Origin: an uncultured bacterium
Lineage (GTDB): Bacteria; Margulisbacteria; Marinamargulisbacteria; SXXA01
NCBI GenBank assembly: GCA_903864835.1
Contig: CAIPHK010000041.1
Location: 25,693-89,692, forward strand
DNA: 64,000 nt
Direction of reading: 5' to 3'
The translations under genes and the position numbers were made by a program. The notes under the pieces were generated by a model, which was not told where the DNA came from, did not search any database, and was given only the letters and a program-made list of their open reading frames with translations. Shown here piece after piece: positions 14,562 to 47,902 of this stretch; within the stretch, counting starts at the first letter, position 1; each line of letters opens with the position of its first letter.

Positions 14562-14585
14562 GATGCCACTTCCTTTCAGAAATTT

Positions 14586-17712: not shown

Positions 17713-17999
17713 TATAAAATCCTCGGAACGACGAAGGAGTGGTCGGCCCAAGCCGGCGCATTCGTCGCCAAGAGAAGGTCCGGCTGGGGTACCACAACGT
17801 CATCTCGCAACACCATGTCCACCGAAAAAGCGGTGGCGGCGGGCGCAACGTGGGTCAAATCAAACTGATTAATACTTTCCATATGTGTCAAAATCGACTG
17901 AATTTGGGGAAGGAATTTTTCCTTCAACGCCGTACTCACGTCCAGGTGGGCCAATTGAATGATGTGATCGAGGTCAGATTTGGAAAATGTCATGGTCAA
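17712..17999 (-). CDS. gatC: Glu-tRNA(Gln) amidotransferase subunit C
   Basis: 95-aa ORF immediately upstream of gatA with coupled stop/start; size and position typical of GatC. Confidence 0.75.
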   Translation of the reverse strand: MTMTFSKSDLDHIIQLAHLDVSTALKEKFLPQIQSILTHMESINQFDLTHVAPAATAFSVDMVLRDDVVVPQPDLLLATNAPAWADHSFVVPRIL

Positions 18000-18015
18000 A
18001 AGTATACCAGGAAAT

Positions 18016-19134: not shown

Positions 19135-19192
19135 AAGTTAAATGAGCTCGAAGTGTAATGGCTATTGGGAGAGGAATCTAGGAGTGCTTGAT

Positions 19193-34725: not shown

Positions 34726-34995
34726 ATGACCAGTATCGACGCCATTCGTGGAATCCTTGAAACCGCGCTCTCTCCATCAACACTCGATATTCTCGACGAA
34801 AGCCACCCTCATCGGGGACATTACCATTCGGACAGCGTCGACCCTAGCCATCTCAAAATTCGGATTGTTTCCGCTGCGTTTGACGGATTATCTCGGGTCA
34901 AACAGCACCAGTTGGTGAATCGGTTATTGAAGCCGGCGTTTGATGATGGGTTACATGCCTTGGCGTTGGAGACGATCGTGGCTGGACAAGATTAA
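34726..34995 (+). CDS. BolA-family protein
   Basis: 89 aa with the BolA-like pattern [37 protein letters not shown]. Confidence 0.6.
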
Positions 34996-35017: not shown

Positions 35018-35794
35018 ATGAAAGCGGTGATTTTAGCGGGTGGGTTGGGCACCCGAATTTCAGAAGAAACCCATCTCAAACCGAAACCGATGATCGAAAT
35101 CGGGGGTCGCCCGATTTTATGGCACATCATGAAAGGGTACTCCGAACACGGTATCCGAGAATTTATTATCTGCTGCGGGTACAAGGGGTACCTCATCAAA
35201 GAATATTTCGCGAACTACTTTCTTCATATGTCCGATGTCACTTTCAACATGCGTGATAACACAATGGAAGTCCACCAACAAAATGCGGAAGATTGGAAGG
35301 TCACTCTCGTTGACACCGGGGAAGCAACAATGACTGGCGGGCGGTTGAAACGGGTGGCCAGTTTCCTTTCTGGCGAAGACGCATTTTGCTTTACGTACGG
35401 CGATGGCGTTAGTGATGTCGACATTACCGCGTCCATTAATTTTCACCGTCAGCACGGGAAATGGGCGACGCTCACGGCAGTATGTCCACCGGGTCGATTC
35501 GGGGCTCTTGATATCCGTCAAGATAGCCTAATCTCGGCCTTCAAAGAAAAACCACAAGGCGACGGAACTCGCATAAACGGCGGTTTTTTTGTCCTATCTC
35601 CCAAGGTTATCGATTTAATTCATTCTGACGACACCTTGTGGGAGCGCGAGCCCTTAGAATCATTGGCGGCACAGGAACAATTGAGAGCCTTTTTGCACGA
35701 CGGATTTTGGCAACCAATGGATACGTTGCGCGATAAAACCGTGCTTGAGGGCCTATGGGAAGAGGGCCGCGCGCCCTGGAAGATATGGGCGTAA
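35018..35794 (+). CDS. rfbF: Glucose-1-phosphate cytidylyltransferase (CDP-glucose synthase)
   Basis: [45 protein letters not shown]; start at ATG 35018 with AAGGAA upstream. Confidence 0.85.
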
Positions 35795-36840
35795 CACCGT
35801 CGTTTTGGAAAGGTAAACGCGTCTTCCTGACCGGCCACACTGGGTTTAAGGGGAGTTGGCTCTCGATTTGGCTCACTCACATGGGGGCAACGGTCACAGG
35901 ATACGCATTACCCGCACCCACTAATCCCAGTCTTTTTGAACTTGCCTCGATCGCAAACCATATTCACCACGTCGAGGGGGATATTCGAAACGCGGATGGG
36001 CTGATTGAAGCCATGCAAACCGCTGGTCCGGATATCGTGATTCACATGGCGGCACAACCCCTCGTCCGATACTCGTACGACCATCCAGTGGAAACCTTTT
36101 CGGTCAACGTATTAGGGTCTGTAAACCTCTTTGAAGCCATCCGGAAAACGCCCTCGGTTCGCGCCGTCGTTAACGTCACCACCGATAAATGTTACGACAA
36201 CCGAGAATGGATTTGGGGCTACCGCGAAAATGAAGCCCTTGGCGGGGCTGACCCATATAGCAGTAGTAAAGCCTGTTCCGAATTGGTGACAGCCTCCTAC
36301 CGACGGTCATTTTTTGAGCCAGAAGGCCGGGTATTTCTGGCGTCGGCCCGAGCGGGCAACGTGATTGGCGGAGGCGACTGGGCGTCAGACCGATTGATCC
36401 CCGACGCGATTCGAGCCCTGCAGACCGATTCCGTCGTTCGAATTCGAAATCCCCATGCCATACGGCCGTGGCAACACGTGCTGGAGCCCCTTTCCGGATA
36501 TTTAATGGTCGCGGAACGGTTGTTTGAACACGGATCCGCATTTGCCGACGCATGGAATTTTGGCCCGCGCGATCAGGACGCTCGCCCGGTTTCGTGGGTG
36601 GTGAGCCAGGTGGTAACCGCATGGGGAAGTGGCCGTTGGGTCATTGACGAGGGCACCCATCCCCACGAAGCGCACTATTTAAAATTGGATTCATCGAAGG
36701 CGGGCCACCAACTGGGGTGGCAGCCGCGGTTGTCGTTATCCGACGCCCTGACGCTGACGGTGGATTGGTACCGAATAGTCCAAAACCAGGTCCCCGCATG
36801 GGATGCCGTAATTAATAATATTCAAAAATTTTCAGAGTAG
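35785..36840 (+). CDS. rfbG: CDP-glucose 4,6-dehydratase
   Basis: Start placed at ATG 35785 (10-nt overlap with rfbF); [20 protein letters not shown]ossmann N-terminus and extended-SDR architecture. Confidence 0.8.
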
Positions 36841-36851
36841 GACACCCCATC

Positions 36852-38168
36852 ATGACCGAAAAAATGAATCAGTTACGCAATGAAATTCGAGGCTTGGTCC
36901 ATCAGTATTCAATCCATAAGTATTCTCACCAAGAATTTTCACCAGGGGTCACCCCGGTTCCGCCATCCGGCAAGCTATTAGACGGTCATGAACTTGAAAT
37001 GATGGTGGATGCCGCATTAGACGGATGGTTAACCACCGGACGGTTTAACGATGAGTTTGAGGAGCGTTTAGCTCAGTTTTTGGGTGTTAAACACCTCATT
37101 ACGGTCAATTCTGGATCATCTGCAAACTTAGTGGCATTTTCAACATTAACGTCCCCCATGCTAAAAGAGCGGGCCATTTTGCCCGGCGACGAAGTGATCG
37201 GAGTCGCTGCTGGATTTCCGACCACCGTAAACCCCATTATCCATTACGGTGCAGTCCCCGTATTTGTGGATGTTGAAATTGGAACGTATAACATCGACGT
37301 CACCCAACTTGAGGCGGCCATTAGCCCAAAAACCAAAGCGATTATGCTGGCCCACACCTTAGGTAATCCCTACAACTTGGAGGTGGTGACTACCCTGTGT
37401 AAAAAATACAACTTATGGCTCATTGAAGATTGCTGCGATGCACTGGGATCGACATACAACGGTCAAACCGTCGGAACATTTGGGGACATTGGCACGCTTA
37501 GTTTTTATCCCGCCCACCATATTACGATGGGGGAAGGCGGTGCCGTATTTACTAACAATCTCAAACTGAAGCGAATTGCAGAGAGTTTTCGGGATTGGGG
37601 GCGTGATTGTTTCTGCCCACCGGGTAAAGACGATACGTGTGGTAAACGCTTTTGTTGGAAATTGGGGGAACTCCCCGAAGGCTATGACCATAAATATATT
37701 TATAGCCATCTGGGATACAACCTCAAAATCACCGACATGCAAGCGGCTTGTGGCTTAGCACAGTTGGATAAAGCCCCCTCATTCATCGAAAAACGAAAAG
37801 CCAATTTTGCGTATTTAAAATCTCAACTGACCCCGTTGTCCGAATTTCTAATTTTACCTGAAGCCACCACGAATAGTGACCCGTCATGGTTTGGATTTCC
37901 GATCACACTCCGAGACTCAGCGCCTGTATCTCGTCTGGAGTTAACCCGGTACTTGGATTCAACAAAAGTAGGTACGAGACTGCTGTTTGCCGGCAATTTA
38001 CTGCGCCAGCCCTACATGAAAGACCGGCCCGTTCGCGTGGTGGGTGAATTAAAAAATACCGATGTGGTCATGAATCAAACATTCTGGATCGGAGTGCAGC
38101 CGGCATTGACTGAGTCGATGTTGGACCATGTTACGGCGTCGATTCGATCTGGATTAATGAGCCGATAG
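36852..38168 (+). CDS. rfbH: CDP-4-keto-6-deoxy-D-glucose 3-dehydrase-like PLP/PMP enzyme (DegT/DnrJ/EryC1 family)
   Basis: 438 aa; aminotransferase-fold features and a Cys-rich segment [23 protein letters not shown] typical of RfbH/E1. Confidence 0.75.
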
Positions 38169-38860
38169 TGCACCCCAAATTATTATTGTTCGGGGCAACA
38201 GGCGCCATCGGGGGCGAGATTTCTCGCCGATTTACCGATGCAGGGTGGGCCGTTATCGCGATTACCCGATCACCGGGTCATGCCGATGCCGTGGTATGGA
38301 ACCCACTCGACGCGAATGACAACGGCTCCCACGTGATGACTCAGGGTCCGTTTGACGCAATATGTTGGGCGCAAGGGCAAAATTGTAACGATTCGATTGA
38401 TTCGTTTGATCTTGAGTTGCACCGCCAACTCTATGACTCTAACGTTGGATATATTTTACAATCGTTGGCCCAAGTGCGCCGCGCAAACGTCCTCAAATCC
38501 GGCGCAAAACTGGTGGTAATCAGCTCCATTTGGCAAGAGATCGCACGACAAAACAAGTTGTCGTACACCGTTACTAAGGCCGCGTTAAAGGGTCTCATTC
38601 ACTCCCTTGCCGCCGACTTGGCCGCAGACGGCATTCTGGTTAACGCCGTTTTGCCCGGTGTCTTGGATACCCCCATGACCCGAAGCAACTTAGGCCCAGA
38701 TCAAGTCTCGACGGTCGAATCGGCAACCTTGTTTAATCGATTGCCGACCCTATACGATGTGTCGGGGGCCGTGCTGGCGTTGTGTGGGCCCACCAATTCG
38801 GGGATAACAGGACAATTTATTCAAGTAGATTTGGGGTATTCAAATGTCCGAATTATTTAA
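38168..38860 (+). CDS. Short-chain dehydrogenase/reductase (SDR)
   Basis: GTG start; N-terminal LLFGATGAIGGEI nucleotide-binding motif; SDR-like YTVTK segment. Confidence 0.65.
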   Translation: MHPKLLLFGATGAIGGEISRRFTDAGWAVIAITRSPGHADAVVWNPLDANDNGSHVMTQGPFDAICWAQGQNCNDSIDSFDLELHRQLYDSNVGYILQSLAQVRRANVLKSGAKLVVISSIWQEIARQNKLSYTVTKAALKGLIHSLAADLAADGILVNAVLPGVLDTPMTRSNLGPDQVSTVESATLFNRLPTLYDVSGAVLALCGPTNSGITGQFIQVDLGYSNVRII

Positions 38861-39929
38861 TATTAAGATTTCATCCAATTCAAAGTCTTATTCGGTGATC
38901 GTTGGTCCTGACATTGTCCAATCCCGATTGGAAAATCAGCCGATGTTTCGAATTGTCGATGATCGACTGAGCGCCCTTTTTCCGTTTACAAATCATGAGC
39001 CTGTAGTTCACGTTTCCGCCACCGAAGACAAAAAGACGTTGGAATCCGTTGCAACAATCATTGAAACCCTGCGATCCAAAGGGGCCACCCGAAATGCCCA
39101 TATCGTGGCCCTTGGCGGTGGGATCATTCAAGACGTAGCCACATTCGCTGCATCCAGCTATATGAGAGGCATTCCTTGGATCTATTGCCCAACCACATTG
39201 TTGGGAATGGTCGATTCGTGTATTGGGGGTAAATCATCGATTAACGTGGGCCAGTATAAAAACATTGCTGGCAATTTTTATCCCCCCGATGAAATTTGGA
39301 TCGATACCGTTTTTTGCGACACGTTATCGAGCGTTCAAAAAGCAGAAGGATTATGTGAGGCCGTCAAAATTTGTTTCGCTGGTGGGGAGCCCTTTAACGA
39401 CTATCTTATGTGGGTGGATACCTATCCCGACTATTTGACTGATCCCTCCGCGTTAGCCCCCATCATTGGGATTGCGTTATCTACTAAAAAGCGGTTTATC
39501 GAAGAAGACGAATTCGATAACGGAATTCGTCGCCTCCTCAATTTTGGACACACATTCGGCCACGCCATCGAGGGGGCCACTCACTATGAGATTAGCCATG
39601 GAATAGCGGTCGGATTAGGTGTCATTGCCGCCATACATATTTCCGTTCAATTGGGGCGAGTATCAGCGGATCATCCCCGTGTCCAAGCGCTCTTAAACCA
39701 GGTTCAAAATCTCCTACGAACAGTGCCATCGTTATCGTCTACCATTCAAGAATTAGATACCCATGCCGCAATGACCTGTTTTAGATCCGACAAAAAACAT
39801 TCATCCACCCATTTTGCGATGATTTTGTTAAATGAGGCGGCGGAACTCGAATTTAGTCAACATCCCCGAACTGACGCGATCGAAGCCCTGATTCAAACCA
39901 CATTTGGCCACATAAAGGAGCAAACATGA
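38844..39929 (+). CDS. 3-dehydroquinate synthase-like enzyme (sugar phosphate cyclase superfamily)
   Basis: ALGGGIIQDVATFAAS nucleotide-binding motif and NFGHTFGHAIE metal-binding motif. Confidence 0.7.
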   Translation: MSELFNIKISSNSKSYSVIVGPDIVQSRLENQPMFRIVDDRLSALFPFTNHEPVVHVSATEDKKTLESVATIIETLRSKGATRNAHIVALGGGIIQDVATFAASSYMRGIPWIYCPTTLLGMVDSCIGGKSSINVGQYKNIAGNFYPPDEIWIDTVFCDTLSSVQKAEGLCEAVKICFAGGEPFNDYLMWVDTYPDYLTDPSALAPIIGIALSTKKRFIEEDEFDNGIRRLLNFGHTFGHAIEGATHYEISHGIAVGLGVIAAIHISVQLGRVSADHPRVQALLNQVQNLLRTVPSLSSTIQELDTHAAMTCFRSDKKHSSTHFAMILLNEAAELEFSQHPRTDAIEALIQTTFGHIKEQT

Positions 39930-41680
39930 TCAAGTATAGTGATTGTTTGGCGGAGTGGCTCTGTCAACTCGGATATACCCATTGCTTTTATGTGGGTGGC
40001 GGAAACATTATGCACCTGGTCGAAAGTTTAAGCCGACAAATGCCTTGTATACCGGTCATCCATGAAGTCGCGGCCGGAATTGCAGCCGAGTACTTTAATG
40101 CGTTACACCCTGACAAAAAAGCACTGGCATTGGTAACCGCTGGTCCGGGGCTAAGTAATATCGTCACCGCTATTGCGGGCGCCTTTGCCGAAAGCAGAGA
40201 ACTACTCGTCATCGGCGGACAAGTTAAAACGGCGGATTTATCCCGAGGGAAATTGCGCCAACGCGGCATCCAAGAAATTGATGGGGTATCCTTGGTTCAA
40301 TCGATCACCAAATGTGCCGAGCGTTGGGATGCGCCGGTCGACTACGACACGTTTTACAGCCGTATTTCCCAATCATGGGAAGGGCGAAAAGGCCCCGTCT
40401 TTATCGAAATCCCCATTGATGTACAGGGTATAAAAGTAGAATTCATCAGCAAATTAGACCAAATCACCCCGACTCCCCATAGTGGCATTTCGGAAGGGGA
40501 CTGGACCCAACTACGCCATTACCTCTCCCAAGCGACGCGTCCATTGATCTTAGTTGGTGGCGGAGTTGATCAACGCGTTGCGCAGTCACTATTTCCGTCG
40601 TGGACCACGATTCCGATTGCTACGACATGGAACGGTGCGGATCGCATTTCGGCGGATCACCCCCTGTATGTGGGACGTCCGAATACCTGGGGACAACGAT
40701 CTGCGAACTTAATTTTGCAACAATCGGATTGCGTTATTGCACTAGGAACCCGATTAGGAATGCAACAAACCGGATTTAATTGGCAAGAATTTGTGCCCCA
40801 TGGGGTGGTCATTCATGTTGATATTGATCCTGCCGAATTGGAAAAAGGTCACCCGCGGATCGATCTTCCGATATGTGCCGACGCCAATGACATCTTGCGT
40901 CGATTAGCGACGATCTCTGATATTGACTGCAGTGATTGGATTCAATACTGCCGGATGATTCGGTCCGAAATTCCGGTATTTGAGCCCGTAAATACAACCG
41001 GAGGCGACTTTATTTCCCCATATCATGTTGTTGAAACACTATCGACGCTCAGCGGAAACGACGATGTGGTTGTTCCTTGCAGTAGCGGCAGTGCATTCAC
41101 CATCATGATGCAAGTGTTTACGCAAAGGGGCGCTCAACGGATTATCACAAACAAGGGCATGGCATCGATGGGATACGGATTGTCAGGCGCCATCGGTGCG
41201 GCATTCGCTGCGCCAGGCCAGCGGGTGATATTGGTCGAGGGAGATGGCGGATTTGCCCAAAATCTACAAGAAATCGGAACCGCTGCAATTAATCAACTTA
41301 ATCTCAAAATTTTTATTTTTGATGATTCAGGATACGCGTCCATTCGAATGACCCAGCGCAACTATTTTGGCGGCCGTTATGTGGGGTGTGATCGGGAAAC
41401 AGGGTTAGGTCTTCCGAACTGGCAGAAATTATTCGATGCATGGGGCGTTCCTGCAATGAGAGTAAATCGTGGATTTGAGTTGACGGAATCGTTTCAGTCG
41501 CTTTTTAATTCAACAGGACCCGCCGCATTTATAGTTTCTGTGGATCCAGATCAAACTTATTTTCCAAAAATTACAAGCCGCATCCTTGAGAATGGGCAGA
41601 TAGTCTCAAACCCGCTACATCTGATGACCCCTGAATTGGACGAAACCCGCTGGCACCGCGTCGCAAAATATATAAAATAA
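39926..41680 (+). CDS. Thiamine-diphosphate-dependent enzyme, acetolactate-synthase-like (YerE-like candidate)
   Basis: 584 aa; ThDP-binding GDGGF..N motif (VEGDGGFAQNLQEIGTAAINQLNLKIFIFDDSGYASI); AAGGAG SD; start overlaps upstream stop as ATGA. Confidence 0.75.
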   Translation: MIKYSDCLAEWLCQLGYTHCFYVGGGNIMHLVESLSRQMPCIPVIHEVAAGIAAEYFNALHPDKKALALVTAGPGLSNIVTAIAGAFAESRELLVIGGQVKTADLSRGKLRQRGIQEIDGVSLVQSITKCAERWDAPVDYDTFYSRISQSWEGRKGPVFIEIPIDVQGIKVEFISKLDQITPTPHSGISEGDWTQLRHYLSQATRPLILVGGGVDQRVAQSLFPSWTTIPIATTWNGADRISADHPLYVGRPNTWGQRSANLILQQSDCVIALGTRLGMQQTGFNWQEFVPHGVVIHVDIDPAELEKGHPRIDLPICADANDILRRLATISDIDCSDWIQYCRMIRSEIPVFEPVNTTGGDFISPYHVVETLSTLSGNDDVVVPCSSGSAFTIMMQVFTQRGAQRIITNKGMASMGYGLSGAIGAAFAAPGQRVILVEGDGGFAQNLQEIGTAAINQLNLKIFIFDDSGYASIRMTQRNYFGGRYVGCDRETGLGLPNWQKLFDAWGVPAMRVNRGFELTESFQSLFNSTGPAAFIVSVDPDQTYFPKITSRILENGQIVSNPLHLMTPELDETRWHRVAKYIK

Positions 41681-41695
41681 AAGAGGGTTATTAAT

Positions 41696-42493
41696 ATGAA
41701 CAGTCGCGAAAGAAAAATGTTGGATATATTAAAACGCCTTAAGACTGAATTTGGCGTAGTGTCCGTCAAGGCAGAATTTGAAGCGGAAGGAACCCGAACG
41801 GACGAATTACTTCGTTTAATCGAAATTGCACGCCGCGCTGATTTGGGTGTCGCGCTCAAAATTGGTGGCTGCGAAGCGATTCGGGATTTGATTGAAAGCA
41901 AACAAATCGGCGTCGAATTTATTATCGCCCCGATGGTTGAAACCCCTTATGCACTCTCAAAATTTATTGAGGCTAAAAACAAAATATATTCGGTTGAAGA
42001 ACAGCAAGATACCCAATTTTTGTTTAACCTGGAAACAATCACCGCGTTCAATCATTTGGACAAAATGATTAAAATCGCAACTCAAGCCGACGGCGTGGAC
42101 GGGGTAGTATTTGGCCGAGTCGACTTTTCGGGTTCATTGGGCTGGAGCCGCGACAACATTAACACCGATGAAATTACCGATTATTGCATCCAGACCGGCA
42201 CTGCATGTAAACAGGCAGGGATCGACTTGGTCGTCGGTGGGGCGGTGTCGATGGATGCCATTTCGATGTTAAGTAAAATGTATGCAAACTATCTCACTCG
42301 ATTCGAAACCAGAAAGATTATTTTCCCCGGTCAGTCGGTTGAAATTGGAAACCTGGATCAAGCCTTATTATTAGCGGTACATTTTGAATTATTGTGGCTT
42401 CAAAATAAACGGGATTATTATAACCTCATTGCCTCCGAAGATGACCGACGCATCGAAATGTTAGATAGCCGATGGAAAATTCTGTCTAACTAG
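41696..42493 (+). CDS. HpcH/HpaI aldolase / citrate-lyase-beta-like protein (putative)
   Basis: [12 protein letters not shown] resembles the (I/V)PK(V/I)E(S/T) motif of the HpcH/CitE family; weak. Confidence 0.4.
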
Positions 42494-42496
42494 CAA

Positions 42497-43450
42497 GTGC
42501 CTATCCCTCATTTATTTTTTACGGGCGGAACCGGATTTTTTGGGAAAGCGTTACTTCGGTACTGGACCGCAACCACGGTAGATCGCCCCAAGCAGGTTTC
42601 TATTTTGACGCGATCGCCCAGTGGTTTTTTGGACCGCTATCCCGAGTTCAAAACTCTCGACTGGGTAACCTTTTACGAAGGGGACATCACCCGTAAGGAC
42701 ACTTTTCCGGATATTTCCTGTAGCCACGTATTACATGCGGCAACCGATTCAACGGTTGGCCCCAACTTACCCCCAATCGAACGCTATGATCAGATCGTGT
42801 CTGGCACTCGAAACGTTTTAGACTTTTCAGTGCAGGCAGGGGCCAAACGATTTTTACTCACCAGCACTGGCGGCGTCTATGGCCAGCAGCCTCAAGAGAT
42901 GGATAAAATCCCAGAAACGTACTGCGGATTCCCCGATCCCCTCCGCCCCCAGAATGCACATTCCATTGCCAAGCGAGCGGCAGAACATCTCTGTATCTTA
43001 TACGGCCACCAATTCGGGATCGAACCCGTCATCGCGCGATGTTTCGCATTTATAGGCAGTGATCTCCCGCTCGATGTCCATTTTGCAATCGGCAATTTTA
43101 TTCGGGATGCAACTCGGGGCCAAGATATCATCATTCAAGGTGATGGCACGTCGGTTCGATCCTATCTCGATCAACACGACCTGTCGGTATGGCTCACCCG
43201 GTTATTACAGACCGAACACCCTGAAACCGCCTACAACGTCGGTTCAGAAACTGCAATTTCAATCAAAGACCTGGCGACCTTGGTCAGAGACTTGGTACAC
43301 CCCGCGGGATCCGTTCAAATTTTGGGCCAGCAGGGCAATAAAGCCGGAACACGCTACGTTCCCGATACCCGGCTTGCCAGGGAAACCTTAGGGTTGTCGG
43401 AAACGGTGTCATTACCCGATGCCATCCGCAGGGCATTGCCGCCATGCTAA
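42497..43450 (+). CDS. NAD-dependent epimerase/dehydratase family protein
   Basis: GTG start; N-terminal FFTGGTGFFG Rossmann motif; extended-SDR length. Confidence 0.7.
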   Translation: MPIPHLFFTGGTGFFGKALLRYWTATTVDRPKQVSILTRSPSGFLDRYPEFKTLDWVTFYEGDITRKDTFPDISCSHVLHAATDSTVGPNLPPIERYDQIVSGTRNVLDFSVQAGAKRFLLTSTGGVYGQQPQEMDKIPETYCGFPDPLRPQNAHSIAKRAAEHLCILYGHQFGIEPVIARCFAFIGSDLPLDVHFAIGNFIRDATRGQDIIIQGDGTSVRSYLDQHDLSVWLTRLLQTEHPETAYNVGSETAISIKDLATLVRDLVHPAGSVQILGQQGNKAGTRYVPDTRLARETLGLSETVSLPDAIRRALPPC

Positions 43451-44610
43451 CCATTTTGGTTCCGACCATCGGGCGCATCCAAAAATTAACGAGGGGAATA
43501 GACTCGTGGATTCGCTGTATTCAATCCGCAAAAGCCGTCGATAAGGTCACGATACTCATTGCCGACAACCATTCGACCGATGGAACCGCAGCCTACGCCC
43601 AATCAATGGCACTACAGCACTCTTTTATTAGGTATGAACGCCAACTCGCATTTTGTCCGTCGGCAGAGGACTCTATCAAGGCCGCATCGCAATTTTGTAC
43701 GACACAGTATGTGTGGACCTTTGGGGACGACGACGAAGTCTCGGAAAATGCACTCACCGTCGTATTAGAGGCCTTACAATCCCACCCCCGCTTCTTAGTC
43801 GTGAATATGAATTGCCGCGATGGCGACCGAAGCATCCCCGGGTTCGACGTCGATTCGAAAATCATTCAATATCCCACCGGATGGCCGTTGTTTCAGAATT
43901 TTGGGGTCACTTCCGGTACGACATGCGTCAGTTCCATTTGCGTCCCACTCGACTTTTATAAAGACCCGATATTAAAAAATTTAAATACCGTATCTCCCAT
44001 TTATAGCCTGTCATGTGCGCTGCTCGTGTGGAGTTACAACCAACCAGTGACACTGGTTGGGAATCGACTATTCGATTATTTTTACAACGTTCCCACGGAA
44101 GAATTAGGTCGAATAACAGGGCTAGCACAATCGAACCAACAACTTCCCCACTACTATTGGCATTTGGGGCTACTGAACTTACTTCGTTCTGTATCCCAAC
44201 ATACCGGAATCTCGCTATCGGAGTTGCTATTGATGAGAGAACCCATATCCCGTGGCGTCGGTGCCCCGGAGCCGCTGGGCAGAGAGTACAAACCGTGCAT
44301 CGAGTTTATCGCGTTGTATGTTGATAAAGAGATGAACGCCTCGTTCGTTGAAATTCAGAATCGTCGTACATCGTTGCATGAATTGATTGTCAATATTCAG
44401 TCTGCTTTTTCAGAATGGACCGGAGTCGATCACTCAAAATCGTTTCAAACCATACACCGATATCTTTGTCAGTTGGAACACGCGCTTGCCGCATTGCCGA
44501 GTCGTTCTATGGCAGGAACTTGGGCGAGACTCAGATTGCGGTGGGGAAAACCGTTTTCTAAGTTAGACGAATTGACTAAATCCTGGATCAAAGAATCCAA
44601 TCGGACCTAA
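43444..44610 (+). CDS. Putative glycosyltransferase (GT2-like)
   Basis: N-terminal ILVPT...D(N)HSTDGT pattern resembling GT2 and an FGDDD acidic motif; divergent. Confidence 0.4.
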   Translation: MLTILVPTIGRIQKLTRGIDSWIRCIQSAKAVDKVTILIADNHSTDGTAAYAQSMALQHSFIRYERQLAFCPSAEDSIKAASQFCTTQYVWTFGDDDEVSENALTVVLEALQSHPRFLVVNMNCRDGDRSIPGFDVDSKIIQYPTGWPLFQNFGVTSGTTCVSSICVPLDFYKDPILKNLNTVSPIYSLSCALLVWSYNQPVTLVGNRLFDYFYNVPTEELGRITGLAQSNQQLPHYYWHLGLLNLLRSVSQHTGISLSELLLMREPISRGVGAPEPLGREYKPCIEFIALYVDKEMNASFVEIQNRRTSLHELIVNIQSAFSEWTGVDHSKSFQTIHRYLCQLEHALAALPSRSMAGTWARLRLRWGKPFSKLDELTKSWIKESNRT

Positions 44611-44613
44611 TTG

Positions 44614-45675
44614 ATGGAATCAGCACTTCATTTAGAAACCCCGTCTGGCCCGGTTCCTCAATTGGCGATCTCAATTCCCACGTGTAACCACCCTGAATTG
44701 GTGGACCAGTTCATACGCGCAATTCTACCGAGTTTAGGTCGCTTCCAAATCCCGGTGTACGTTACCGACAATAGTGATAACGACGAAACCGAACGCATTG
44801 TACAAAATCTCATAAAAGAACATTCGGCTATTTTCTATAGAAGAAACGCCCAGAACCTGCGGTTTGATGCCAATTGCGCACAAGCCATTACGTGGCCCCA
44901 CGCCGAGTACGTCTGGCCCGTTGGCGATGGGATGTTAATCAATGAGCCGATGATTGAGACCATTCTTAACTCTCTCGAAAAAAAACCGGATTTAGTCTTT
45001 TTAAATTATCGGGTTCCTGATTTAGGACAACGCGTCATTGAGCCATCACATCAGCACGAATGGATCGTCAGTCACGCGTGGCATTTGACGTCATTGGGGG
45101 CCACAATCTTCGGGACAAAACCGAGAGAAGTCGCCCGAAAGGCCACCACTAAAGAGTTTGGTCGTTGGAAAAACTTTTTTCATCTGGGCCTCATTTTGCG
45201 CTGTTCAACAACCGAAAAGGCCCGCTGTCTATGGATTGGGCCCCACGCGGTGCGGGGGAATCCGAATAAAACGGGGAGTGGTTGGGTCGGGATTGCGATC
45301 CAAGTGTTTGCCGGAGATTGGGCACGGTTAATTCTAAGCTTCTCGGATGTTTTCTCTCCTAATGAAACTCAGGATCTTATCCGGTCACATGGGGTAAAAA
45401 CCCGTATATTTGGGTGGCGAGATCTGCTGCAATTCAGAAAAGATGGCCGATTCTCCAAACCGATTTTTGACGCGTATCAAACCGAAATAAAATTAGCGGT
45501 ACCGCTGCCAATCCGTTGGTTGCAATTGCTCGCCGAAGCACCCGATGCACGCGTCCATTGGCCTTCAATGGGGTGGGGATTGATGCTCCGACTTTGCTGG
45601 CTTTTGGAGAAAGCCCAACAACTCGGGCAATTATTCGTTAAAAAATCCGCCCAGTCCGACTCGCTTCCAAAATAG
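44614..45675 (+). CDS. Putative glycosyltransferase (GT2-like), paralog of the preceding gene
   Basis: ISIPTCNHPELVDQFIRAI..VYVTDNSDNDETERIV pattern; ATG at 44614. Confidence 0.4.
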   Translation: MESALHLETPSGPVPQLAISIPTCNHPELVDQFIRAILPSLGRFQIPVYVTDNSDNDETERIVQNLIKEHSAIFYRRNAQNLRFDANCAQAITWPHAEYVWPVGDGMLINEPMIETILNSLEKKPDLVFLNYRVPDLGQRVIEPSHQHEWIVSHAWHLTSLGATIFGTKPREVARKATTKEFGRWKNFFHLGLILRCSTTEKARCLWIGPHAVRGNPNKTGSGWVGIAIQVFAGDWARLILSFSDVFSPNETQDLIRSHGVKTRIFGWRDLLQFRKDGRFSKPIFDAYQTEIKLAVPLPIRWLQLLAEAPDARVHWPSMGWGLMLRLCWLLEKAQQLGQLFVKKSAQSDSLPK

Positions 45676-46579
45676 CCAAATCCGACAATCGAGACGGTGG
45701 TCGGTCCCAGCGATACATTATTACAATCCCGATATAACGAAGCGCGGAAAAAATTGCGCCGATATCGGCCCGCTGCAGAGTCAATATCTTCAGTGCTATC
45801 GTGGCAAAATGACTGACGAGTAACCGAGGCGACGTTAAATTCCGCCACATAAACAAATAATGATTTCGTCGATGGATCTTGGCCACGTGCGCGGACGAAA
45901 ATAAGCGCCCAATGGTCGCCTGATGGTCGTGCAAAATGGTGCCCAACGGCATGTACCATGACGCCCACCCGCGTTGCCACGCGCGATAGGACAAATCCAA
46001 GTCTTCGAAATAAAAGGGCGAAAAGAGTGGGTCAAAGCCACCTAAGGTAAAGTACCGATCTCGACGTACCGCCATTGCACCGCCACAGGCCCACAAAACA
46101 GGACGTGCTTGGGTAATGTCTACCGACTCCGGGGGATACGACTCGGGGGTAAGCCATCCGCCTTTAAAATATCCCCATGTAATCGATTCAAAGGCATTGT
46201 CTTTACTCGGCCGAATAATCGTCGGGACGATGGCAAATATATCCGGACAAGCCAACTCATCCACCAAACGCGATAGATCCAGGTCCGATATCTTCATGTC
46301 GTTGTTTAAAAAAAACAAAATTTCGGATGTCGCCGCTAAGGCACCTCGGTGGGCCGTAACCGAAAATCCTCGATTCTGGGGACTCGTGACCACTTTGACA
46401 CTGGGGAAGTGCTCCGCCAACCACTCAGCAGTCTTGTCGTCGCTACCATCATCCGAGACGATCCATTCAATCGTAGGAGACGCCAAGACTTGAAGATTAT
46501 GGGCCAATGTCCGGTCCAACAAATGGCGACCGTTATAGGTTGGGATAATGATTGAAATCGATGGGACAGTCATCGTCAT
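45638..46579 (-). CDS. Glycosyltransferase family 2
   Basis: ISIIIPTYNGRHLLDRTL..WIVSDDGSDDKT; start placed at internal ATG 46579, which overlaps the upstream stop; converges on the plus-strand GT gene (38-nt overlap). Confidence 0.7.
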   Translation of the reverse strand: MTMTVPSISIIIPTYNGRHLLDRTLAHNLQVLASPTIEWIVSDDGSDDKTAEWLAEHFPSVKVVTSPQNRGFSVTAHRGALAATSEILFFLNNDMKISDLDLSRLVDELACPDIFAIVPTIIRPSKDNAFESITWGYFKGGWLTPESYPPESVDITQARPVLWACGGAMAVRRDRYFTLGGFDPLFSPFYFEDLDLSYRAWQRGWASWYMPLGTILHDHQATIGRLFSSAHVAKIHRRNHYLFMWRNLTSPRLLVSHFATIALKILTLQRADIGAIFSALRYIGIVIMYRWDRPPSRLSDLAILEASRTGRIF

Positions 46580-47901
46580 CAATTTAACCCTCGTACTGCT
46601 GGCAAAAAATGAATCAAATTGGATGTCCAAATTCGAGCGATCCATAATTTCAACGACCACCGACGATGAGGTACCACGACCACATTTATATTCCCCGCCA
46701 CCATTCGATTTTTAAGTTCAGTAATCGACGCCTTCGGATCTAAATGAATTGCATTCCATGCAAATGGCACTTGGGCACGCACCCCCTCAAATATGGACGC
46801 ATCACAATAGATGCCGGCTTGATGCCCGACCAAGTCCCAATACGCACGTTGGCCTGCCAGCGTCCCGGTGGTCGTGCGGTCCAATTCACGAATTAAGGCC
46901 ACCACCCGATCGGGGGAAATAAACTCCCGCCCGGGGCACGGACAGTGTAAGGGGACACACGAATCACGGCAGGCATTTTGCTGTTTATAAATCACATGGG
47001 GACTTAACCACGGCGCCCAATGAAAACAGTTTTGCGTTCGAGTGCGATAGATCACCACGGCCGGGCATTGCAACGCCGCCGCAATATGCGACAACCCCGA
47101 GTCTGGCCCCACAAAATAAGTGGCCTTTTTGATTACAGCACTCACATCTACTAGCGATGTCTTGCCGGCCAAGTTAATGATCCGACCTTCGGTATTTATC
47201 CAGTCTAAAGTGGTCTCAGTCGCGTTAGCCACCACTCCGCCGAGCAACACAAGTGGTGAGGGACAGAGGTCCAACATCGCCGTTAAAACCGGTTTAATTT
47301 CAGAATCAACCCAGCACTTCACCTTAGCGCCAGCATCCACCGCAACGACCCGATACGGCGAGTTCATGAAGGGATACTTTTCTGCCACCTCTTCCATCAA
47401 GGGGCCCGATATCTGAAGCTGCAATCGGGAATCGGGTGCGCTAACGCCCAATGGCGCTAATAATGCCAAATTCATCTGGACTTTATGGCGATGATAATCC
47501 TGATAGTCCAACCGGACGCAATGGGTATGGTAGAGCCAATTTCTCCACCCAATGGCATGCCCAATGCGCACTTTAATCTCCGCTGCTTTGGCCAAAACCG
47601 CATATCGGGGGTGCTCCCAAAGATTAATCATGACATCAAATTGATGAAATTTAAGGGCGGCTAAAACCTGAGTAAATTCGGGGGATCGCGTCGTGCCATC
47701 ATACGGCTGAGTATCGGGTATAACGCCGGCTACATCCGGAATTTCAGTCAATAAGGCCACAAACGCAGGTCGTGCCAGAAAAAAAATTTGGGCCTCCGGA
47801 TACTGGCGTTTAATGGGCTGAATTAATGCCGTTGCGGTAATTAAATCCCCCAACATATCCCCCCGAGCAATAAGGATTTTGGGCGACGGCGGAAGGGGCA
47901 C
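46579..47901 (-). CDS. ADP-heptose:LPS heptosyltransferase-like glycosyltransferase (GT9) with C-terminal extension
   Basis: KILIARGDMLGDLITATA..VDAGA..LLGG..LAGKTSL..FVGPDSGLSHIAAAL pattern of RfaF/WaaC-type enzymes; about 95 extra C-terminal residues. Confidence 0.7.
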   Translation of the reverse strand: MPLPPSPKILIARGDMLGDLITATALIQPIKRQYPEAQIFFLARPAFVALLTEIPDVAGVIPDTQPYDGTTRSPEFTQVLAALKFHQFDVMINLWEHPRYAVLAKAAEIKVRIGHAIGWRNWLYHTHCVRLDYQDYHRHKVQMNLALLAPLGVSAPDSRLQLQISGPLMEEVAEKYPFMNSPYRVVAVDAGAKVKCWVDSEIKPVLTAMLDLCPSPLVLLGGVVANATETTLDWINTEGRIINLAGKTSLVDVSAVIKKATYFVGPDSGLSHIAAALQCPAVVIYRTRTQNCFHWAPWLSPHVIYKQQNACRDSCVPLHCPCPGREFISPDRVVALIRELDRTTTGTLAGQRAYWDLVGHQAGIYCDASIFEGVRAQVPFAWNAIHLDPKASITELKNRMVAGNINVVVVPHRRWSLKLWIARIWTSNLIHFLPAVRGLN

Positions 47902-47902
47902 T

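What the first reader, a model, noticed from the sequence alone, without database searches (positions are those of the whole stretch)
35018..47901. CDP-hexose branched or deoxy-sugar glycan cluster lacking an obvious E3 reductase
rfbF-rfbG-rfbH (CDP-glucose synthase, 4,6-dehydratase, PMP-dependent 3-dehydrase) are followed by an SDR, a DHQS-like cyclase, an ALS-like ThDP enzyme, an HpcH-type aldolase, an epimerase/dehydratase, three GT2-like and one GT9 transferase and an MFS exporter. In the known CDP-3,6-dideoxyhexose and yersiniose pathways the dehydrase needs the DdhD/E3 reductase, and YerE (an ALS-like ThDP enzyme) adds a two-carbon branch. Here no E3-like flavodoxin-reductase gene is visible, and a DHQS-like enzyme is present instead.
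Basis: partly seen in the sequence, partly recalled or inferred. Interest (0 to 1): 0.6.

Follow-up and report, generated by a model that had tools for sequence, protein, structure and literature searches.

The report
Branched-sugar operon with AroB-like enzyme
This is a real ten-gene operon for a CDP-activated, carbon-branched deoxy sugar of the yersiniose/caryophyllose kind; its unusual part is a widely conserved but unstudied pair of enzymes (a dehydroquinate-synthase look-alike and a small reductase) that most likely helps build the side chain and does not replace the missing E3 reductase.

Summary
The gene content is confirmed. rfbF, rfbG and rfbH all pass NCBI's equivalog cut-offs, and RfbH is a true E1 with the four-cysteine 2Fe-2S motif. 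They are followed, tightly packed, by a 230-aa SDR, an AroB-like protein, an ALS-like ThDP enzyme, a divergent HpcH-type aldolase, an extended SDR, three GT2 genes and one GT9 gene.

No E3 (DdhD/RfbI) homologue lies in the 64-kb window. None lies within 10 kb of 11 related rfbH-containing cassettes either.

The AroB-like gene is not there "instead of" E3. Together with the SDR (a conserved 17-nt overlap), and usually with the aldolase and the ThDP enzyme, it forms a module found in Acidobacteria, Proteobacteria and Actinobacteria, including loci that lack rfbH.

The AroB-like protein keeps every AroB catalytic residue. The ThDP enzyme matches the YerE-like JanthE better than any acetolactate synthase.

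My best reading is inferred, not shown. The aldolase, the AroB-like phosphate eliminase and the SDR make a deoxygenated 2-keto acid. The ThDP enzyme adds it to CDP-4-keto-3,6-dideoxyglucose, giving a caryophyllose-type sugar. The overall logic is published (Steitz 2022). I found no description of a role for the AroB-like/SDR pair.

Verdict: a new variant of a known kind, of moderate interest.

The parts
35018..35794 (+). rfbF/ddhA, glucose-1-phosphate cytidylyltransferase (258 aa from the ATG at 35018)
   Evidence: TIGR02623 equivalog, 462 bits against a cut-off of 300. Pfam NTP_transferase. Gene call in L002.
35755..36840 (+). rfbG/ddhB, CDP-glucose 4,6-dehydratase
   Evidence: TIGR02622 equivalog, 498 bits against a cut-off of 278.
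36852..38168 (+). rfbH/ddhC (E1), PMP- and [2Fe-2S]-dependent CDP-4-keto-6-deoxyglucose 3-dehydrase
   Evidence: NF011936, 745 bits against a cut-off of 423. Motif C195-x57-C253-x-C255-x7-C263, and HH222/223 in place of the PLP lysine. These positions are invariant with Salmonella RfbH and four other homologues.
38168..38860 (+). Classical short-chain dehydrogenase/reductase, 230 aa, translationally coupled to the next gene (17-nt overlap). Proposed ketoreductase acting on the free side-chain precursor.
   Evidence: Pfam adh_short and adh_short_C2. No NCBIfam equivalog. Best solved relatives are carbonyl reductases and FabG. It lies directly upstream of the DHQS-like gene in every related locus that has enough flank. 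The same 17-nt overlap occurs in L003, L004, L005, L088 and L089.
38844..39929 (+). AroB-like (3-dehydroquinate-synthase-like) enzyme, 361 aa. Proposed NAD+/metal-dependent phosphate eliminase acting on a DAHP-like 3-deoxy-2-ulosonate phosphate.
   Evidence: Pfam DHQ_synthase plus DHQS_C. TIGR04425, 306 bits (cut-off 400), and aroB, 254 bits (cut-off 305), so both are below cut-off. The same holds for 10 homologues. All catalytic positions conserved in AroB are retained. Homologues at 41% identity or more always sit in the sugar cassette; hits without those neighbours (30-43% identity) are ordinary aroB.
39926..41680 (+). ALS-like ThDP-dependent carboligase, 584 aa, proposed YerE-like branching enzyme
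   Evidence: TPP_enzyme_N, _M and _C. The best AHAS models score 256-262 bits against cut-offs of 538-738. The best PDB match is JanthE, 8rph (YerE-like), at 272 bits; AHAS scores 194. It has a canonical GDG motif. It is 31% identical to JanthE.
41696..42493 (+). Divergent HpcH/HpaI-type class II (metal-dependent) pyruvate aldolase, 265 aa
   Evidence: Pfam HpcH_HpaI, 38.8 bits against a cut-off of 25. AlphaFold model with pLDDT 92.6. Best fold matches are HpaI, HpcH, SwHKA and YfaU, at TM about 0.6 and 13-18% identity. The metal-ligand positions E113 and D143 align with YfaU and are invariant in 19 homologues. Hundreds of database clusters are 67-80% identical.
42497..43450 (+). Extended SDR of the NDP-sugar epimerase/dehydratase/reductase type, 317 aa. 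Proposed YerF-like reductase of the branch ketone on the CDP-sugar.
   Evidence: Pfam Epimerase and GDP_Man_Dehyd. The best solved relatives are nucleotide-sugar enzymes such as UDP-glucuronate decarboxylase. Orthologues (39-61%) occur in about 13 related loci.
43444..44610 (+). GT2 glycosyltransferase a
   Evidence: Pfam Glycos_transf_2. 39% orthologue in the same position in L004.
44611..45675 (+). GT2 glycosyltransferase b
   Evidence: Pfam Glycos_transf_2. 42% orthologue in L004.
45638..46579 (-). GT2 glycosyltransferase c (313 aa by gene call; the longest ORF extends to 46660)
   Evidence: Pfam Glycos_transf_2, 77 bits. 53% orthologue in L004. Gene call.
46579..47901 (-). GT9 (heptosyltransferase-family) glycosyltransferase
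   Evidence: Pfam Glyco_transf_9, 97 bits. It scores below all heptosyltransferase equivalog cut-offs. A 31% homologue lies near the cassette in L004.

Best explanation
The operon makes a CDP-activated 3,6-dideoxyhexose that carries a long, hydroxylated, terminally deoxygenated carbon branch at C-4 (a caryophyllose/aurantose-type sugar). The adjacent GT2 and GT9 transferases then install it on a cell-envelope glycan.

Sugar half:
- RfbF makes CDP-glucose.
- RfbG makes CDP-4-keto-6-deoxyglucose.
- RfbH (E1) removes the 3-OH. Its electrons come from a reductase encoded outside the window, probably a general ferredoxin or flavodoxin reductase pair.

Side-chain half (inferred):
- The HpcH-like aldolase condenses pyruvate with a phosphorylated aldose, most plausibly erythrose 4-phosphate. 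The product is a DAHP-like 3-deoxy-heptulosonate 7-phosphate.
- The AroB-like enzyme carries out the first half of the dehydroquinate-synthase reaction: transient NAD+ oxidation, beta-elimination of phosphate, then re-reduction. This gives a 7-deoxy-6-keto acid.
- The translationally coupled 230-aa SDR reduces the 6-ketone before the intermediate can cyclise. The product is a 3,7-dideoxy-heptulosonate.

Coupling:
- The YerE-like ThDP enzyme decarboxylates this 2-keto acid and adds the acyl anion to the C-4 ketone of the CDP-sugar.
- The extended SDR (YerF-like) reduces the new branch ketone.

What is shown: the family identities, the E1 motif, the absence of E3, the conservation and independence of the module, and the AroB-type active site. 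What is inferred: the substrates, the order of steps, the lack of cyclisation and the final structure.
For: 1. The three CDP-sugar genes are equivalogs, and RfbH has the E1 cysteine/histidine signature.

2. The ThDP enzyme is not an AHAS. Its best solved relative is JanthE, a YerE-like enzyme that accepts long and 4-hydroxy 2-keto acids.

3. Published work shows the scheme. YerE-like enzymes (ErwE, MMAR_2332, MyGE) use aldolase-made functionalised 2-keto acids as donors for CDP-4-keto-3,6-dideoxyglucose. An HpcH/citrate-lyase-family aldolase (MMAR_2331) is required for caryophyllose (PMC9306805; PMC5706390).

4. Caryophyllose is 3,6-dideoxy-4-C-(D-altro-1,3,4,5-tetrahydroxyhexyl)-D-xylo-hexose. 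Its branch is exactly a decarboxylated 3,7-dideoxy-heptulosonate. That branch needs one terminal deoxygenation and one adjacent carbinol, which matches what a phosphate-eliminating AroB-like enzyme plus a ketoreductase would deliver.

5. Across 27 related loci, SDR plus AroB-like are inseparable. They usually lie with the aldolase (22 loci) and a ThDP enzyme. In Serpentinimonas the aldolase is replaced by a NeuB-family enzyme, which also makes 3-deoxy-2-ulosonic acids.

6. The AroB-like family retains every position conserved in 59 true AroBs: R108, D124, K130, N140, E172, K175, K215, R229, N233, H236, H240 and H252. This argues for a DAHP-like substrate that carries both a carboxylate and a phosphate.

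7. The small SDR resembles small-molecule carbonyl reductases, whereas the 317-aa SDR resembles nucleotide-sugar enzymes. This fits one acting on the free acid and the other on the CDP-sugar.

8. The SDR/AroB-like overlap of 17 nt is conserved across phyla, which fits a coupled pair handling a labile intermediate.
Against: - No enzyme of the module has been assayed, and every characterised DHQS homologue I know of is a cyclase. With an AroB-identical active site, the simplest prediction for the isolated enzyme is cyclisation to a dehydroquinate-like carbocycle, which cannot serve as a ThDP donor.
- I could not show that known caryophyllose, aurantose or ropiose producers carry the AroB-like/SDR pair. 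The published descriptions of the M. marinum and R. palustris clusters do not mention one. No Mycobacterium appeared among the best 120 homologues of an actinobacterial AroB-like protein.
- Trinickia acidisoli, Pseudomonas mosselii and contig L019 have the trio without a ThDP gene nearby.
- The window's ThDP enzyme is only 31% identical to JanthE. I could not compare it with YerE, ErwE or MMAR_2332.
- The electron donor for E1 is unidentified.
- Which DHQS residues bind the carboxylate rests on my memory of the A. nidulans DHQS structure, not on a tool result.
Confidence: 0.42

Rival explanations
1. The AroB-like enzyme is a true cyclase. The aldolase product is cyclised to a dehydroquinate-like carbocycle and then processed by the SDR. 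The final product is a carbocycle-containing unit, either a cyclitol attached to or fused with the CDP-sugar, or a separate cyclitol acid in the glycan. This would be comparable in spirit to caryose or bradyrhizose.
For: The active site cannot be told apart from AroB at all conserved positions; only six subtle family-specific changes exist (Q96, Y114, C126, S131, D225, G257). The nearest NCBIfam model is named a 'cyclizing' phospholyase. [quoted passage not shown] A Trinickia species carries the trio with rfbFGH.
Against: A dehydroquinate-type product has no 2-keto acid function, so it cannot be a decarboxylative ThDP donor. Yet a ThDP enzyme accompanies the module in most loci. From my memory of their structures, caryose (C9) and bradyrhizose (C10) do not match a C6 + C6 carbon count. 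No extra nucleotidyltransferase is present to activate a free cyclitol.
Confidence: 0.17
2. The order of steps is different. The ThDP enzyme first transfers the phosphorylated (DAHP-like) acyl unit onto the CDP-4-keto sugar. The AroB-like/SDR pair then deoxygenates or cyclises the side chain while it is attached to the nucleotide sugar.
For: The genes are contiguous and co-transcribed. YerE-like enzymes tolerate functionalised donors.
Against: The AroB-like protein keeps the AroB residues that, in DHQS, surround the small DAHP molecule including its carboxylate (residue roles from memory). The pocket shows no sign of enlargement for a CDP-sugar. The coupled SDR is of the small-molecule type. 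The trio also occurs without a nearby ThDP gene.
Confidence: 0.1
3. This is a plain yersiniose-type pathway. The ThDP enzyme adds a C2 unit from pyruvate. The aldolase/AroB-like/SDR trio makes an unrelated second component, for example a 3-deoxy-ulosonic acid, or performs an unrelated function.
For: The canonical YerE uses pyruvate. The trio can occur without a ThDP gene within 10 kb.
Against: The trio and a ThDP gene are adjacent, usually overlapping, in most of the related loci across several phyla. Canonical yersiniose clusters consist of ddhA-D, yerE and yerF only (PMC4509608). The window has no CMP-/NDP-activating enzyme for a second acid sugar.
Confidence: 0.12
4. The AroB-like enzyme, with the SDR, replaces E3 or provides an E3-independent route to 3-deoxygenation.
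For: E3 is absent from all 12 rfbH-containing cassettes. Canonical clusters do carry it: Salmonella L086 and Pseudomonas WCS417.
Against: The AroB-like/SDR pair is equally present where rfbF-rfbG are adjacent but rfbH is missing (L008, L010, L018, L026). The protein has no flavin, FNR or Fe-S features and an unchanged DHQS site. RfbH keeps its own 2Fe-2S motif, which needs one-electron donors. rfbH clusters without the trio also lack E3 (Azospirillum L087).
Confidence: 0.03

Closest known systems
Yersiniose A pathway of Yersinia pseudotuberculosis (DdhA-D, YerE, YerF); also predicted in Pseudomonas WCS417
   Same: The entry is the same: Glc-1-P cytidylyltransferase, CDP-glucose 4,6-dehydratase and an E1 3-dehydrase. 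An ALS-like ThDP enzyme and an NDP-sugar-type reductase are in the same operon (PMC9306805; PMC4509608).
   Different: There is no ddhD/E3 gene. Three extra genes are present (aldolase, AroB-like, small SDR). The donor is therefore unlikely to be pyruvate. The ThDP enzyme could not be compared with YerE itself.
Long-branched sugar scheme of Steitz et al. 2022: erwiniose (ErwE/ErwI/ErwJ), caryophyllose (MMAR_2331 aldolase, MMAR_2332 ThDP enzyme), gastriose (MyGE/MygI)
   Same: An aldolase sits next to a YerE-like ThDP enzyme and the CDP-4-keto-3,6-dideoxyglucose genes. The aldolase is of the aldolase/citrate-lyase (HpcH) family, as reported for MMAR_2331. A C7 donor would give exactly the tetrahydroxyhexyl branch of caryophyllose.
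   Different: The published descriptions do not mention a DHQS-like enzyme or a coupled small SDR. The source of the deoxy-aldehyde ('28') in that scheme is unexplained. Orthology of the window's aldolase and ThDP enzyme to the mycobacterial ones was not testable here.
3-Dehydroquinate synthase (AroB) and the sugar-phosphate cyclase superfamily; NCBIfam TIGR04425 'AroB-related putative sugar phosphate phospholyase (cyclizing)'
   Same: It has both Pfam domains. All catalytic, metal and substrate positions conserved in 59 AroBs are kept. It is 30-43% identical to true AroBs.
   Different: It scores below the aroB and TIGR04425 cut-offs, as do 10 other cassette members. It is never in a shikimate context and is always fused in an operon to an SDR and sugar genes. 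Six family-specific substitutions exist. Its product is unknown.
JanthE from Janthinobacterium sp. HH01 (PDB 8rph/8rpi/8rpj), a YerE-like carboligase
   Same: It is the best solved relative of the window's ThDP enzyme (272 bits, full length). JanthE accepts long and 4-hydroxy 2-keto acids and ketone acceptors.
   Different: Identity is only 31%. JanthE has a CDG rather than a GDG motif. It is closer (37-39%) to the second ThDP type found in the rfbH-less cassettes L008, L010 and L018. Its physiological substrates are also unknown.
SpnQ-type 3-dehydrases that work without a dedicated E3 (from memory: Hong, Zhao and Liu, spinosyn forosamine pathway)
   Same: An E1-like PMP/[2Fe-2S] 3-dehydrase is encoded without a partner reductase. 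General cellular ferredoxin or flavodoxin reductases can supply the electrons.
   Different: SpnQ acts on a TDP-2,6-dideoxy sugar in an actinomycete antibiotic cluster. Here the enzyme is a close RfbH equivalog (66% identical to Salmonella RfbH) acting on a CDP-sugar.

Membership tests
CDP-3,6-dideoxyhexose core pathway (DdhA/B/C/D = RfbF/G/H/I) | Glucose-1-phosphate cytidylyltransferase | tested here: met
   TIGR02623, 462 bits against a cut-off of 300.
CDP-3,6-dideoxyhexose core pathway (DdhA/B/C/D = RfbF/G/H/I) | CDP-glucose 4,6-dehydratase | tested here: met
   TIGR02622, 498 bits against a cut-off of 278.
CDP-3,6-dideoxyhexose core pathway (DdhA/B/C/D = RfbF/G/H/I) | E1 3-dehydrase: DegT-fold enzyme with His in place of the PLP lysine and a C-x57-C-x-C-x7-C 2Fe-2S motif (motif recalled from the E1 literature) | tested here: met
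   NF011936, 745 bits against a cut-off of 423. C195, C253, C255, C263 and H222/H223 are present and invariant with Salmonella RfbH.
CDP-3,6-dideoxyhexose core pathway (DdhA/B/C/D = RfbF/G/H/I) | E3 (DdhD/RfbI/AscD) 2Fe-2S flavoprotein reductase encoded with the pathway | tested here: not met
   tblastn with Salmonella RfbI (L086 4118-5092) gives no hit at E<=1 in the window or in any cassette locus. No FNR or Fer2 Pfam domains and no ferredoxin motifs were found. The rest of the genome could not be searched.
YerE-type C-4 branching pathway (yersiniose / erwiniose / caryophyllose scheme) | ThDP-dependent enzyme of the ALS-like decarboxylase superfamily that is not a biosynthetic or catabolic acetolactate synthase | tested here: met
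   Three TPP domains. The best AHAS and AlsS models score 168-262 bits against cut-offs of 510-1084. JanthE scores 272 bits, E. coli AHAS I 194 and PpYerE-type 5ahk 190. No AHAS small-subunit gene lies among the neighbours.
YerE-type C-4 branching pathway (yersiniose / erwiniose / caryophyllose scheme) | Orthology to characterised YerE, ErwE or MMAR_2332 | tested here: inconclusive
   Only JanthE could be compared (31% identity). Sequences of YerE, ErwE and MMAR_2332 were not obtainable with the tools.
YerE-type C-4 branching pathway (yersiniose / erwiniose / caryophyllose scheme) | Carboligation onto CDP-4-keto-3,6-dideoxyglucose | not testable with these tools
   This needs an enzyme assay. 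Only the co-operonic position with rfbFGH supports it.
YerE-type C-4 branching pathway (yersiniose / erwiniose / caryophyllose scheme) | Aldolase in the cluster that supplies a functionalised 2-keto acid donor (long-branch variants) | tested here: met
   Met at family level only. Pfam HpcH_HpaI, 38.8 bits against 25. The model (pLDDT 92.6) is closest to the class II pyruvate aldolases HpaI, HpcH and YfaU. Metal ligands E113 and D143 are conserved. The substrate is not tested.
YerE-type C-4 branching pathway (yersiniose / erwiniose / caryophyllose scheme) | YerF-like NAD(P)H reductase of the branch ketone | tested here: inconclusive
   A 317-aa extended SDR of nucleotide-sugar type is present. 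No YerF sequence was available for comparison.
3-Dehydroquinate synthase (AroB, shikimate pathway) | DHQ_synthase N- and C-terminal domains with the conserved metal, NAD and substrate residues | tested here: met
   PF01761 at 124 bits and PF24621 at 92 bits. 39 positions are conserved at 90% or more in both the cassette family and 59 AroBs. They include R108, D124, K130, N140, E172, K175, K215, R229, N233, H236, H240 and H252.
3-Dehydroquinate synthase (AroB, shikimate pathway) | Score above NCBI's aroB equivalog cut-off | tested here: not met
   TIGR01357, 253.8 bits against a cut-off of 305. Ten other cassette members score 231-259.
3-Dehydroquinate synthase (AroB, shikimate pathway) | Housekeeping or shikimate gene context | tested here: not met
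   In 27 of 27 related loci it lies in a sugar cassette next to the SDR. The true aroB loci L027-L085 lack those neighbours.
NCBIfam TIGR04425 (AroB-related putative sugar phosphate phospholyase, cyclizing) | Score above the curated cut-off | tested here: not met
   305.7 bits against a cut-off of 400. Ten other cassette members score 272-328. It is the nearest named model, but the cassette proteins form a separate, unnamed subfamily.

The most novel reading that the evidence does not exclude
The AroB-like enzyme really cyclises. On that reading, this widespread aldolase/AroB-like/SDR/ThDP module makes a previously unknown class of carbocycle-bearing branched nucleotide sugars. It would give a genetic entry point to the unsolved biosynthesis of carbocyclic LPS sugars of the caryose and bradyrhizose type, with a shikimate-pathway enzyme recruited into glycan synthesis.
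Probability: 0.15. Interest if true: 0.8.

Novelty: new variant of a known kind. Interest (0 to 1): 0.5.

Why it matters
Long-branched sugars such as caryophyllose, aurantose and ropiose decorate the envelopes of pathogens and symbionts. Their ThDP branching step is understood, but nobody has explained where the hydroxylated, terminally deoxygenated donor comes from.

This operon belongs to a very common cassette: thousands of database clusters, spread across Acidobacteria, Proteobacteria and Actinobacteria. In it, the branching enzyme is locked to an aldolase, a dehydroquinate-synthase paralogue and a reductase.

That gives a concrete hypothesis which can be tested in vitro. A shikimate-type phosphate elimination may have been borrowed to deoxygenate a sugar-acid side chain. 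Alternatively, it may build a carbocycle.

The cassette also offers new carboligases and aldolases for biocatalysis of tertiary alcohols. It shows, too, that E1-type 3-dehydrases routinely operate without a clustered E3.

Tried and rejected
- E3 hunt. I ran tblastn with Salmonella RfbI, regular expressions for plant-type, adrenodoxin-type and 4Fe-4S ferredoxin motifs, and Pfam on all ORFs of 150 aa or more. Nothing was found in the window or in the cassette loci.
- E3 adjacency on plasmids. Cross-listing RfbH and E3 hits showed adjacency only in two Salmonella records and one Sphingomonas record among the rows shown. Because 176 E3-like records were not listed, no frequency can be given.
- Prior work on the AroB-like gene. 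Full-text searches combining CDP-glucose, caryophyllose or yersiniose with dehydroquinate synthase found nothing relevant. The one hit, a B. pseudomallei paper, lists the genes in unrelated loci.
- Papers not held. The supplements of Steitz 2022, plus Krug 2024, Lanza 2024 and Sarkar 2011, are not held.
- Do caryophyllose producers carry the pair? A homologue search seeded with an actinobacterial AroB-like protein returned Gordonia, Propionicimonas and Nanopelagicaceae, but no named Mycobacterium in the top 120. The M. marinum papers I could read do not annotate the neighbouring genes. This remains unresolved.
- Bradyrhizose lead. The paper says the genes are unknown and gives no gene list, so the lead could not be followed.
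- Organism identity. Cluster look-ups of ClpX, ClpP and the cassette proteins carry no taxon names. The genome-collection scan found no relative above 48% identity.
- BolA, directly upstream, as an Fe-S helper for E1: rejected as a conserved partner, because it is absent from L004 and the other loci.
- MFS as the glycan exporter: rejected.

Full report
**Observation.**
The region holds a compact plus-strand operon of ten genes (35018-45675). It is followed by a convergent minus-strand set (45638-49501). Junctions in the operon are overlaps or gaps of at most 16 nt.

- RfbF: TIGR02623, 462 bits against a cut-off of 300.
- RfbG: TIGR02622, 498 against 278.
- RfbH: NF011936, 745 against 423.
- Next come a 230-aa classical SDR, a protein with both dehydroquinate-synthase domains, an ALS-like enzyme with all three ThDP domains, an HpcH/HpaI-family protein and an extended SDR.
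- Then come three GT2 genes and a GT9 gene.

The flanks are housekeeping genes: tig-clpP-clpX, a 298-aa ORF and bolA upstream; a DUF4143 ATPase and PEP carboxylase downstream. Base composition does not set the cluster apart from its surroundings.

The MFS gene just outside the stated coordinates is a DHA2/EmrB-type efflux pump. The closest related cassette lacks one, so I do not count it as part of the system.

**E1 and the missing E3.**
The window's RfbH carries C195-x57-C253-x-C255-x7-C263 and HH222/223 where aminotransferases have the PLP lysine. As I recall the E1 literature, this is the 2Fe-2S and PMP signature of the CDP-6-deoxy-4-hexulose 3-dehydrase.

These positions are invariant in an alignment with Salmonella RfbH and four other homologues. 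The enzyme is therefore a true E1 and not a ColD-like or ordinary aminotransferase.

I recovered an authentic E3 sequence, Salmonella RfbI, from the unannotated gap between rfbC and rfbF in a Salmonella record. I searched it by tblastn against the window and all fetched loci. There was no hit at E<=1. Pfam scans and ferredoxin-motif scans were also negative.

Canonical clusters do carry E3:
- the Salmonella record;
- Pseudomonas WCS417, with ddhA-D, yerE and yerF (PMC4509608);
- a Sphingomonas plasmid where the two genes are 2 kb apart.

By contrast, 0 of 12 rfbH-containing cassettes of the type described below have E3 within 10 kb. An Azospirillum rfbFGH cluster without the extra genes lacks it too. 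So the absence is real but is a shared trait. From memory, SpnQ shows that such dehydrases can draw electrons from general ferredoxin or flavodoxin reductases. The rest of this genome could not be searched.

**The AroB-like gene belongs to a conserved module.**
Homologues of the 361-aa protein split cleanly in two.
- Those at 41% identity or more (L003-L026, L088-L090) come from Acidobacteria, Alpha-, Beta- and Gammaproteobacteria and Actinobacteria, including Gordonia. They always lie in a sugar cassette.
- Hits without those neighbours (30-43% identity; L027-L085, mostly Xanthomonadales) are ordinary aroB genes.

Within the cassette loci:
- The 230-aa SDR lies directly upstream of the AroB-like gene wherever the flank exists. 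The 17-nt overlap is the same in the window, Serpentinimonas, Methyloradius, Trinickia, P. mosselii and L004 (8 nt in Gordonia).
- The HpcH-like aldolase is present in 22 of 27 loci.
- An ALS-like ThDP gene is present in all loci with enough flank except L019, L088 and L089.

Three variations are informative.
- In Serpentinimonas a NeuB-family gene takes the aldolase's place. Both enzyme types make 3-deoxy-2-ulosonic acids.
- L008, L010 and L018 have rfbF-rfbG joined directly to the module with no rfbH, and they use a different ThDP subfamily (33-34% identical). L026 also lacks rfbH nearby.
- Thirteen loci add a GtrB/ArnC-like polyprenyl-phosphate glycosyltransferase.

The module is therefore independent of 3-deoxygenation. 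That, together with the protein's chemistry, argues against the idea that it stands in for E3.

**What the module's proteins look like.**
*AroB-like protein.* The cassette family shares 39 positions that are conserved at 90% or more in both it and 59 true AroBs. These include R108, D124, K130, N140, E172, K175, K215, R229, N233, H236, H240 and H252. By motif these correspond to the Zn ligands and the DAHP phosphate and carboxylate contacts of A. nidulans DHQS; the residue roles are from memory.

Only six positions are family-specific: Q96, Y114, C126, S131, D225 and G257. The window protein and ten other members fall below both the aroB cut-off (231-259 bits against 305) and the TIGR04425 cut-off (272-328 against 400). 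They are therefore an unnamed sister subfamily.

*Aldolase.* It is highly conserved, with hundreds of database clusters at 67-80% identity. It is remote from characterised enzymes. A confident model (pLDDT 92.6) is closest to the class II pyruvate aldolases HpaI, HpcH, SwHKA and YfaU, at TM about 0.6 and 13-18% identity. The two metal-ligand positions are conserved.

*ThDP enzyme.* It scores far below every AHAS and AlsS cut-off. Its best solved relative is JanthE (8rph) at 272 bits, against 194 for E. coli AHAS I. JanthE is a YerE-like carboligase that accepts long and 4-hydroxy 2-keto acids, and its natural substrates are unknown. Identity to JanthE is only 31%, and JanthE is nearer to the second ThDP type.

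*The two SDRs.* The small SDR resembles carbonyl reductases and FabG. The 317-aa SDR resembles nucleotide-sugar enzymes.

**Published frame.**
Steitz et al. (PMC9306805) showed three things.
- YerE adds pyruvate-derived acetyl to CDP-4-keto-3,6-dideoxyglucose.
- ErwE, MMAR_2332 and MyGE instead use functionalised 2-keto acids made by aldolases encoded next to them.
- ErwE rejects pyruvate.

For caryophyllose they proposed pyruvate plus an unexplained deoxy-aldehyde. Caryophyllose is 3,6-dideoxy-4-C-(D-altro-1,3,4,5-tetrahydroxyhexyl)-D-xylo-hexose (PMC5706390).

A 2025 review states that more than 200 YerE-like clusters have been catalogued, mostly with unknown products (PMC12247030). None of the texts I could read mentions a dehydroquinate-synthase-like gene. 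Full-text searches pairing it with CDP-glucose, caryophyllose or related terms found nothing relevant.

**Proposed mechanism.**
*Shown:* the identities above, the operon structure, the conservation of the module and its independence from rfbH.

*Inferred:*
- The aldolase joins pyruvate to a phosphorylated aldose. Erythrose 4-phosphate is the obvious one, because it gives a DAHP-type C7 acid that fits an unchanged DHQS pocket.
- The AroB-like enzyme oxidises C5, eliminates phosphate and re-reduces, as DHQS does.
- The coupled SDR reduces the resulting 6-ketone, giving a 3,7-dideoxy-heptulosonate.
- The ThDP enzyme decarboxylates it and adds the C6 acyl unit to C-4 of CDP-4-keto-3,6-dideoxyglucose.
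- The extended SDR reduces the branch ketone.

The product would have the constitution of caryophyllose. Each of the three 'extra' genes then has a necessary role: C-C bond formation, terminal deoxygenation, and formation of the carbinol next to the methyl group.

By my own reading of the stereochemical descriptors, a D-altro side chain corresponds to a D-ribo acid, which is the 4-epimer of DAHP. That would explain why a dedicated aldolase is used rather than the shikimate pathway's DAHP.

There is no Wzx, Wzy or ABC transporter. Together with the three GT2 genes and the GT9 gene, this suggests decoration of a core or oligosaccharide rather than of a polymer.

**Main weakness and rivals.**
All characterised DHQS relatives that I know of are cyclases. 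From memory, the last steps of the DHQS reaction are largely spontaneous. The isolated enzyme may therefore well make a dehydroquinate-like carbocycle.

Such a product cannot be a decarboxylative ThDP donor, which is why I rank the acyclic route first. The cyclase reading is not excluded, and it is the most novel one.

Other rivals are:
- branching first, with tailoring carried out on the CDP-sugar;
- a plain C2 yersiniose, with the trio serving another purpose;
- E3 replacement, now very unlikely.

The trio without a nearby ThDP gene in Trinickia acidisoli, P. mosselii and L019 remains unexplained.

**Verdict.**
The specific suggestion that the DHQS-like enzyme compensates for the missing E3 is not supported.

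The cluster is a new variant of a known kind. It has the known CDP-3,6-dideoxyhexose and ThDP-branching logic, plus a widespread and uncharacterised aldolase/AroB-like/SDR donor module. The organism could not be identified.

Noticed in passing
window 3-14585 (- strand): An open reading frame of at least 4861 aa runs off the left end of the window. It matches no Pfam family at E<=0.001. The region has a strongly negative GC skew on the plus strand.
   Followed up: partly
window 19193-24700 (- strand): A second very large ORF (1835 aa) has no Pfam family above its cut-off. The only hit is a sub-threshold DUF2460 match. It is followed by a 372-aa ORF (18016-19134) that has no family either.
   Followed up: no
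window 34726-34995 (+): A BolA-family gene ends 23 nt before rfbF. BolA proteins take part in Fe-S cluster handling and E1 needs a 2Fe-2S cluster, but this adjacency is not seen in L004 or any other related locus. It is probably coincidental.
   Followed up: partly
window 49644-50630 (+) and 54734-55921 (-); L004 4266-5423 and 17879-19006: DUF4143/AAA_14 ATPase genes flank the sugar cassette both here and in the closest related contig. The copy at 49644-50630 matches only the C-terminal part of the AAA_14 domain. They may mark a variable or mobile region.
   Followed up: no
window 47903-49501 (-): The 'MFS exporter' is a DHA2/EmrB-type 14-TMS-class drug efflux pump by NCBIfam (TIGR00711, above cut-off). 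It is not conserved next to the cassette elsewhere.
   Followed up: yes
window 38844-38860; L003, L004, L005, L088, L089 (same junction): The stop of the SDR gene and the start of the AroB-like gene overlap by exactly 17 nt in distantly related bacteria (8 nt in Gordonia L090). This is an unusually well-conserved sign of translational coupling.
   Followed up: partly
L003 (Serpentinimonas maccroryi AP014569.1) 8221-13982: The SDR/AroB-like/ThDP module sits next to fliS, and a NeuB-family gene replaces the HpcH-like aldolase. This hints at flagellin glycosylation in that organism.
   Followed up: no
L088 (Trinickia acidisoli) 10001-20801; L089 (Pseudomonas mosselii) 10001-20801: These loci carry aldolase, SDR, AroB-like, extended SDR, two glycosyltransferases, rfbFGH and an ABC transporter, but no ThDP gene within 10 kb. 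From memory, Trinickia is the genus of the caryophyllose and caryose producer formerly named Burkholderia caryophylli.
   Followed up: partly
L008, L010, L018 (also L007 18738-20474 and L009 17767-19521): A second ThDP subfamily (33-34% identical to the window's enzyme, 34-39% to JanthE) goes with cassettes that have rfbF-rfbG but no rfbH. This suggests a 3-hydroxy (6-deoxy) acceptor sugar in those organisms.
   Followed up: partly
13 of 27 related loci, e.g. L006 12807-13736, L008 15241-16770: A GtrB/ArnC-like polyprenyl-phosphate GT2 accompanies the module, in four loci together with a GtrA-like membrane protein and a methyltransferase. This suggests that in those bacteria the branched sugar is carried on a lipid and added outside the cytoplasmic membrane. 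The window lacks these genes.
   Followed up: no
window 33821-34717 (+): A 298-aa ORF between clpX and bolA matches no Pfam or NCBIfam family.
   Followed up: no
protein P0268 (hit): A 61%-identical homologue of the actinobacterial AroB-like protein is labelled 'Candidatus Paceibacterota' on a 508-kb contig. This is an unexpected host for an envelope-sugar cassette, or possibly a binning error.
   Followed up: no
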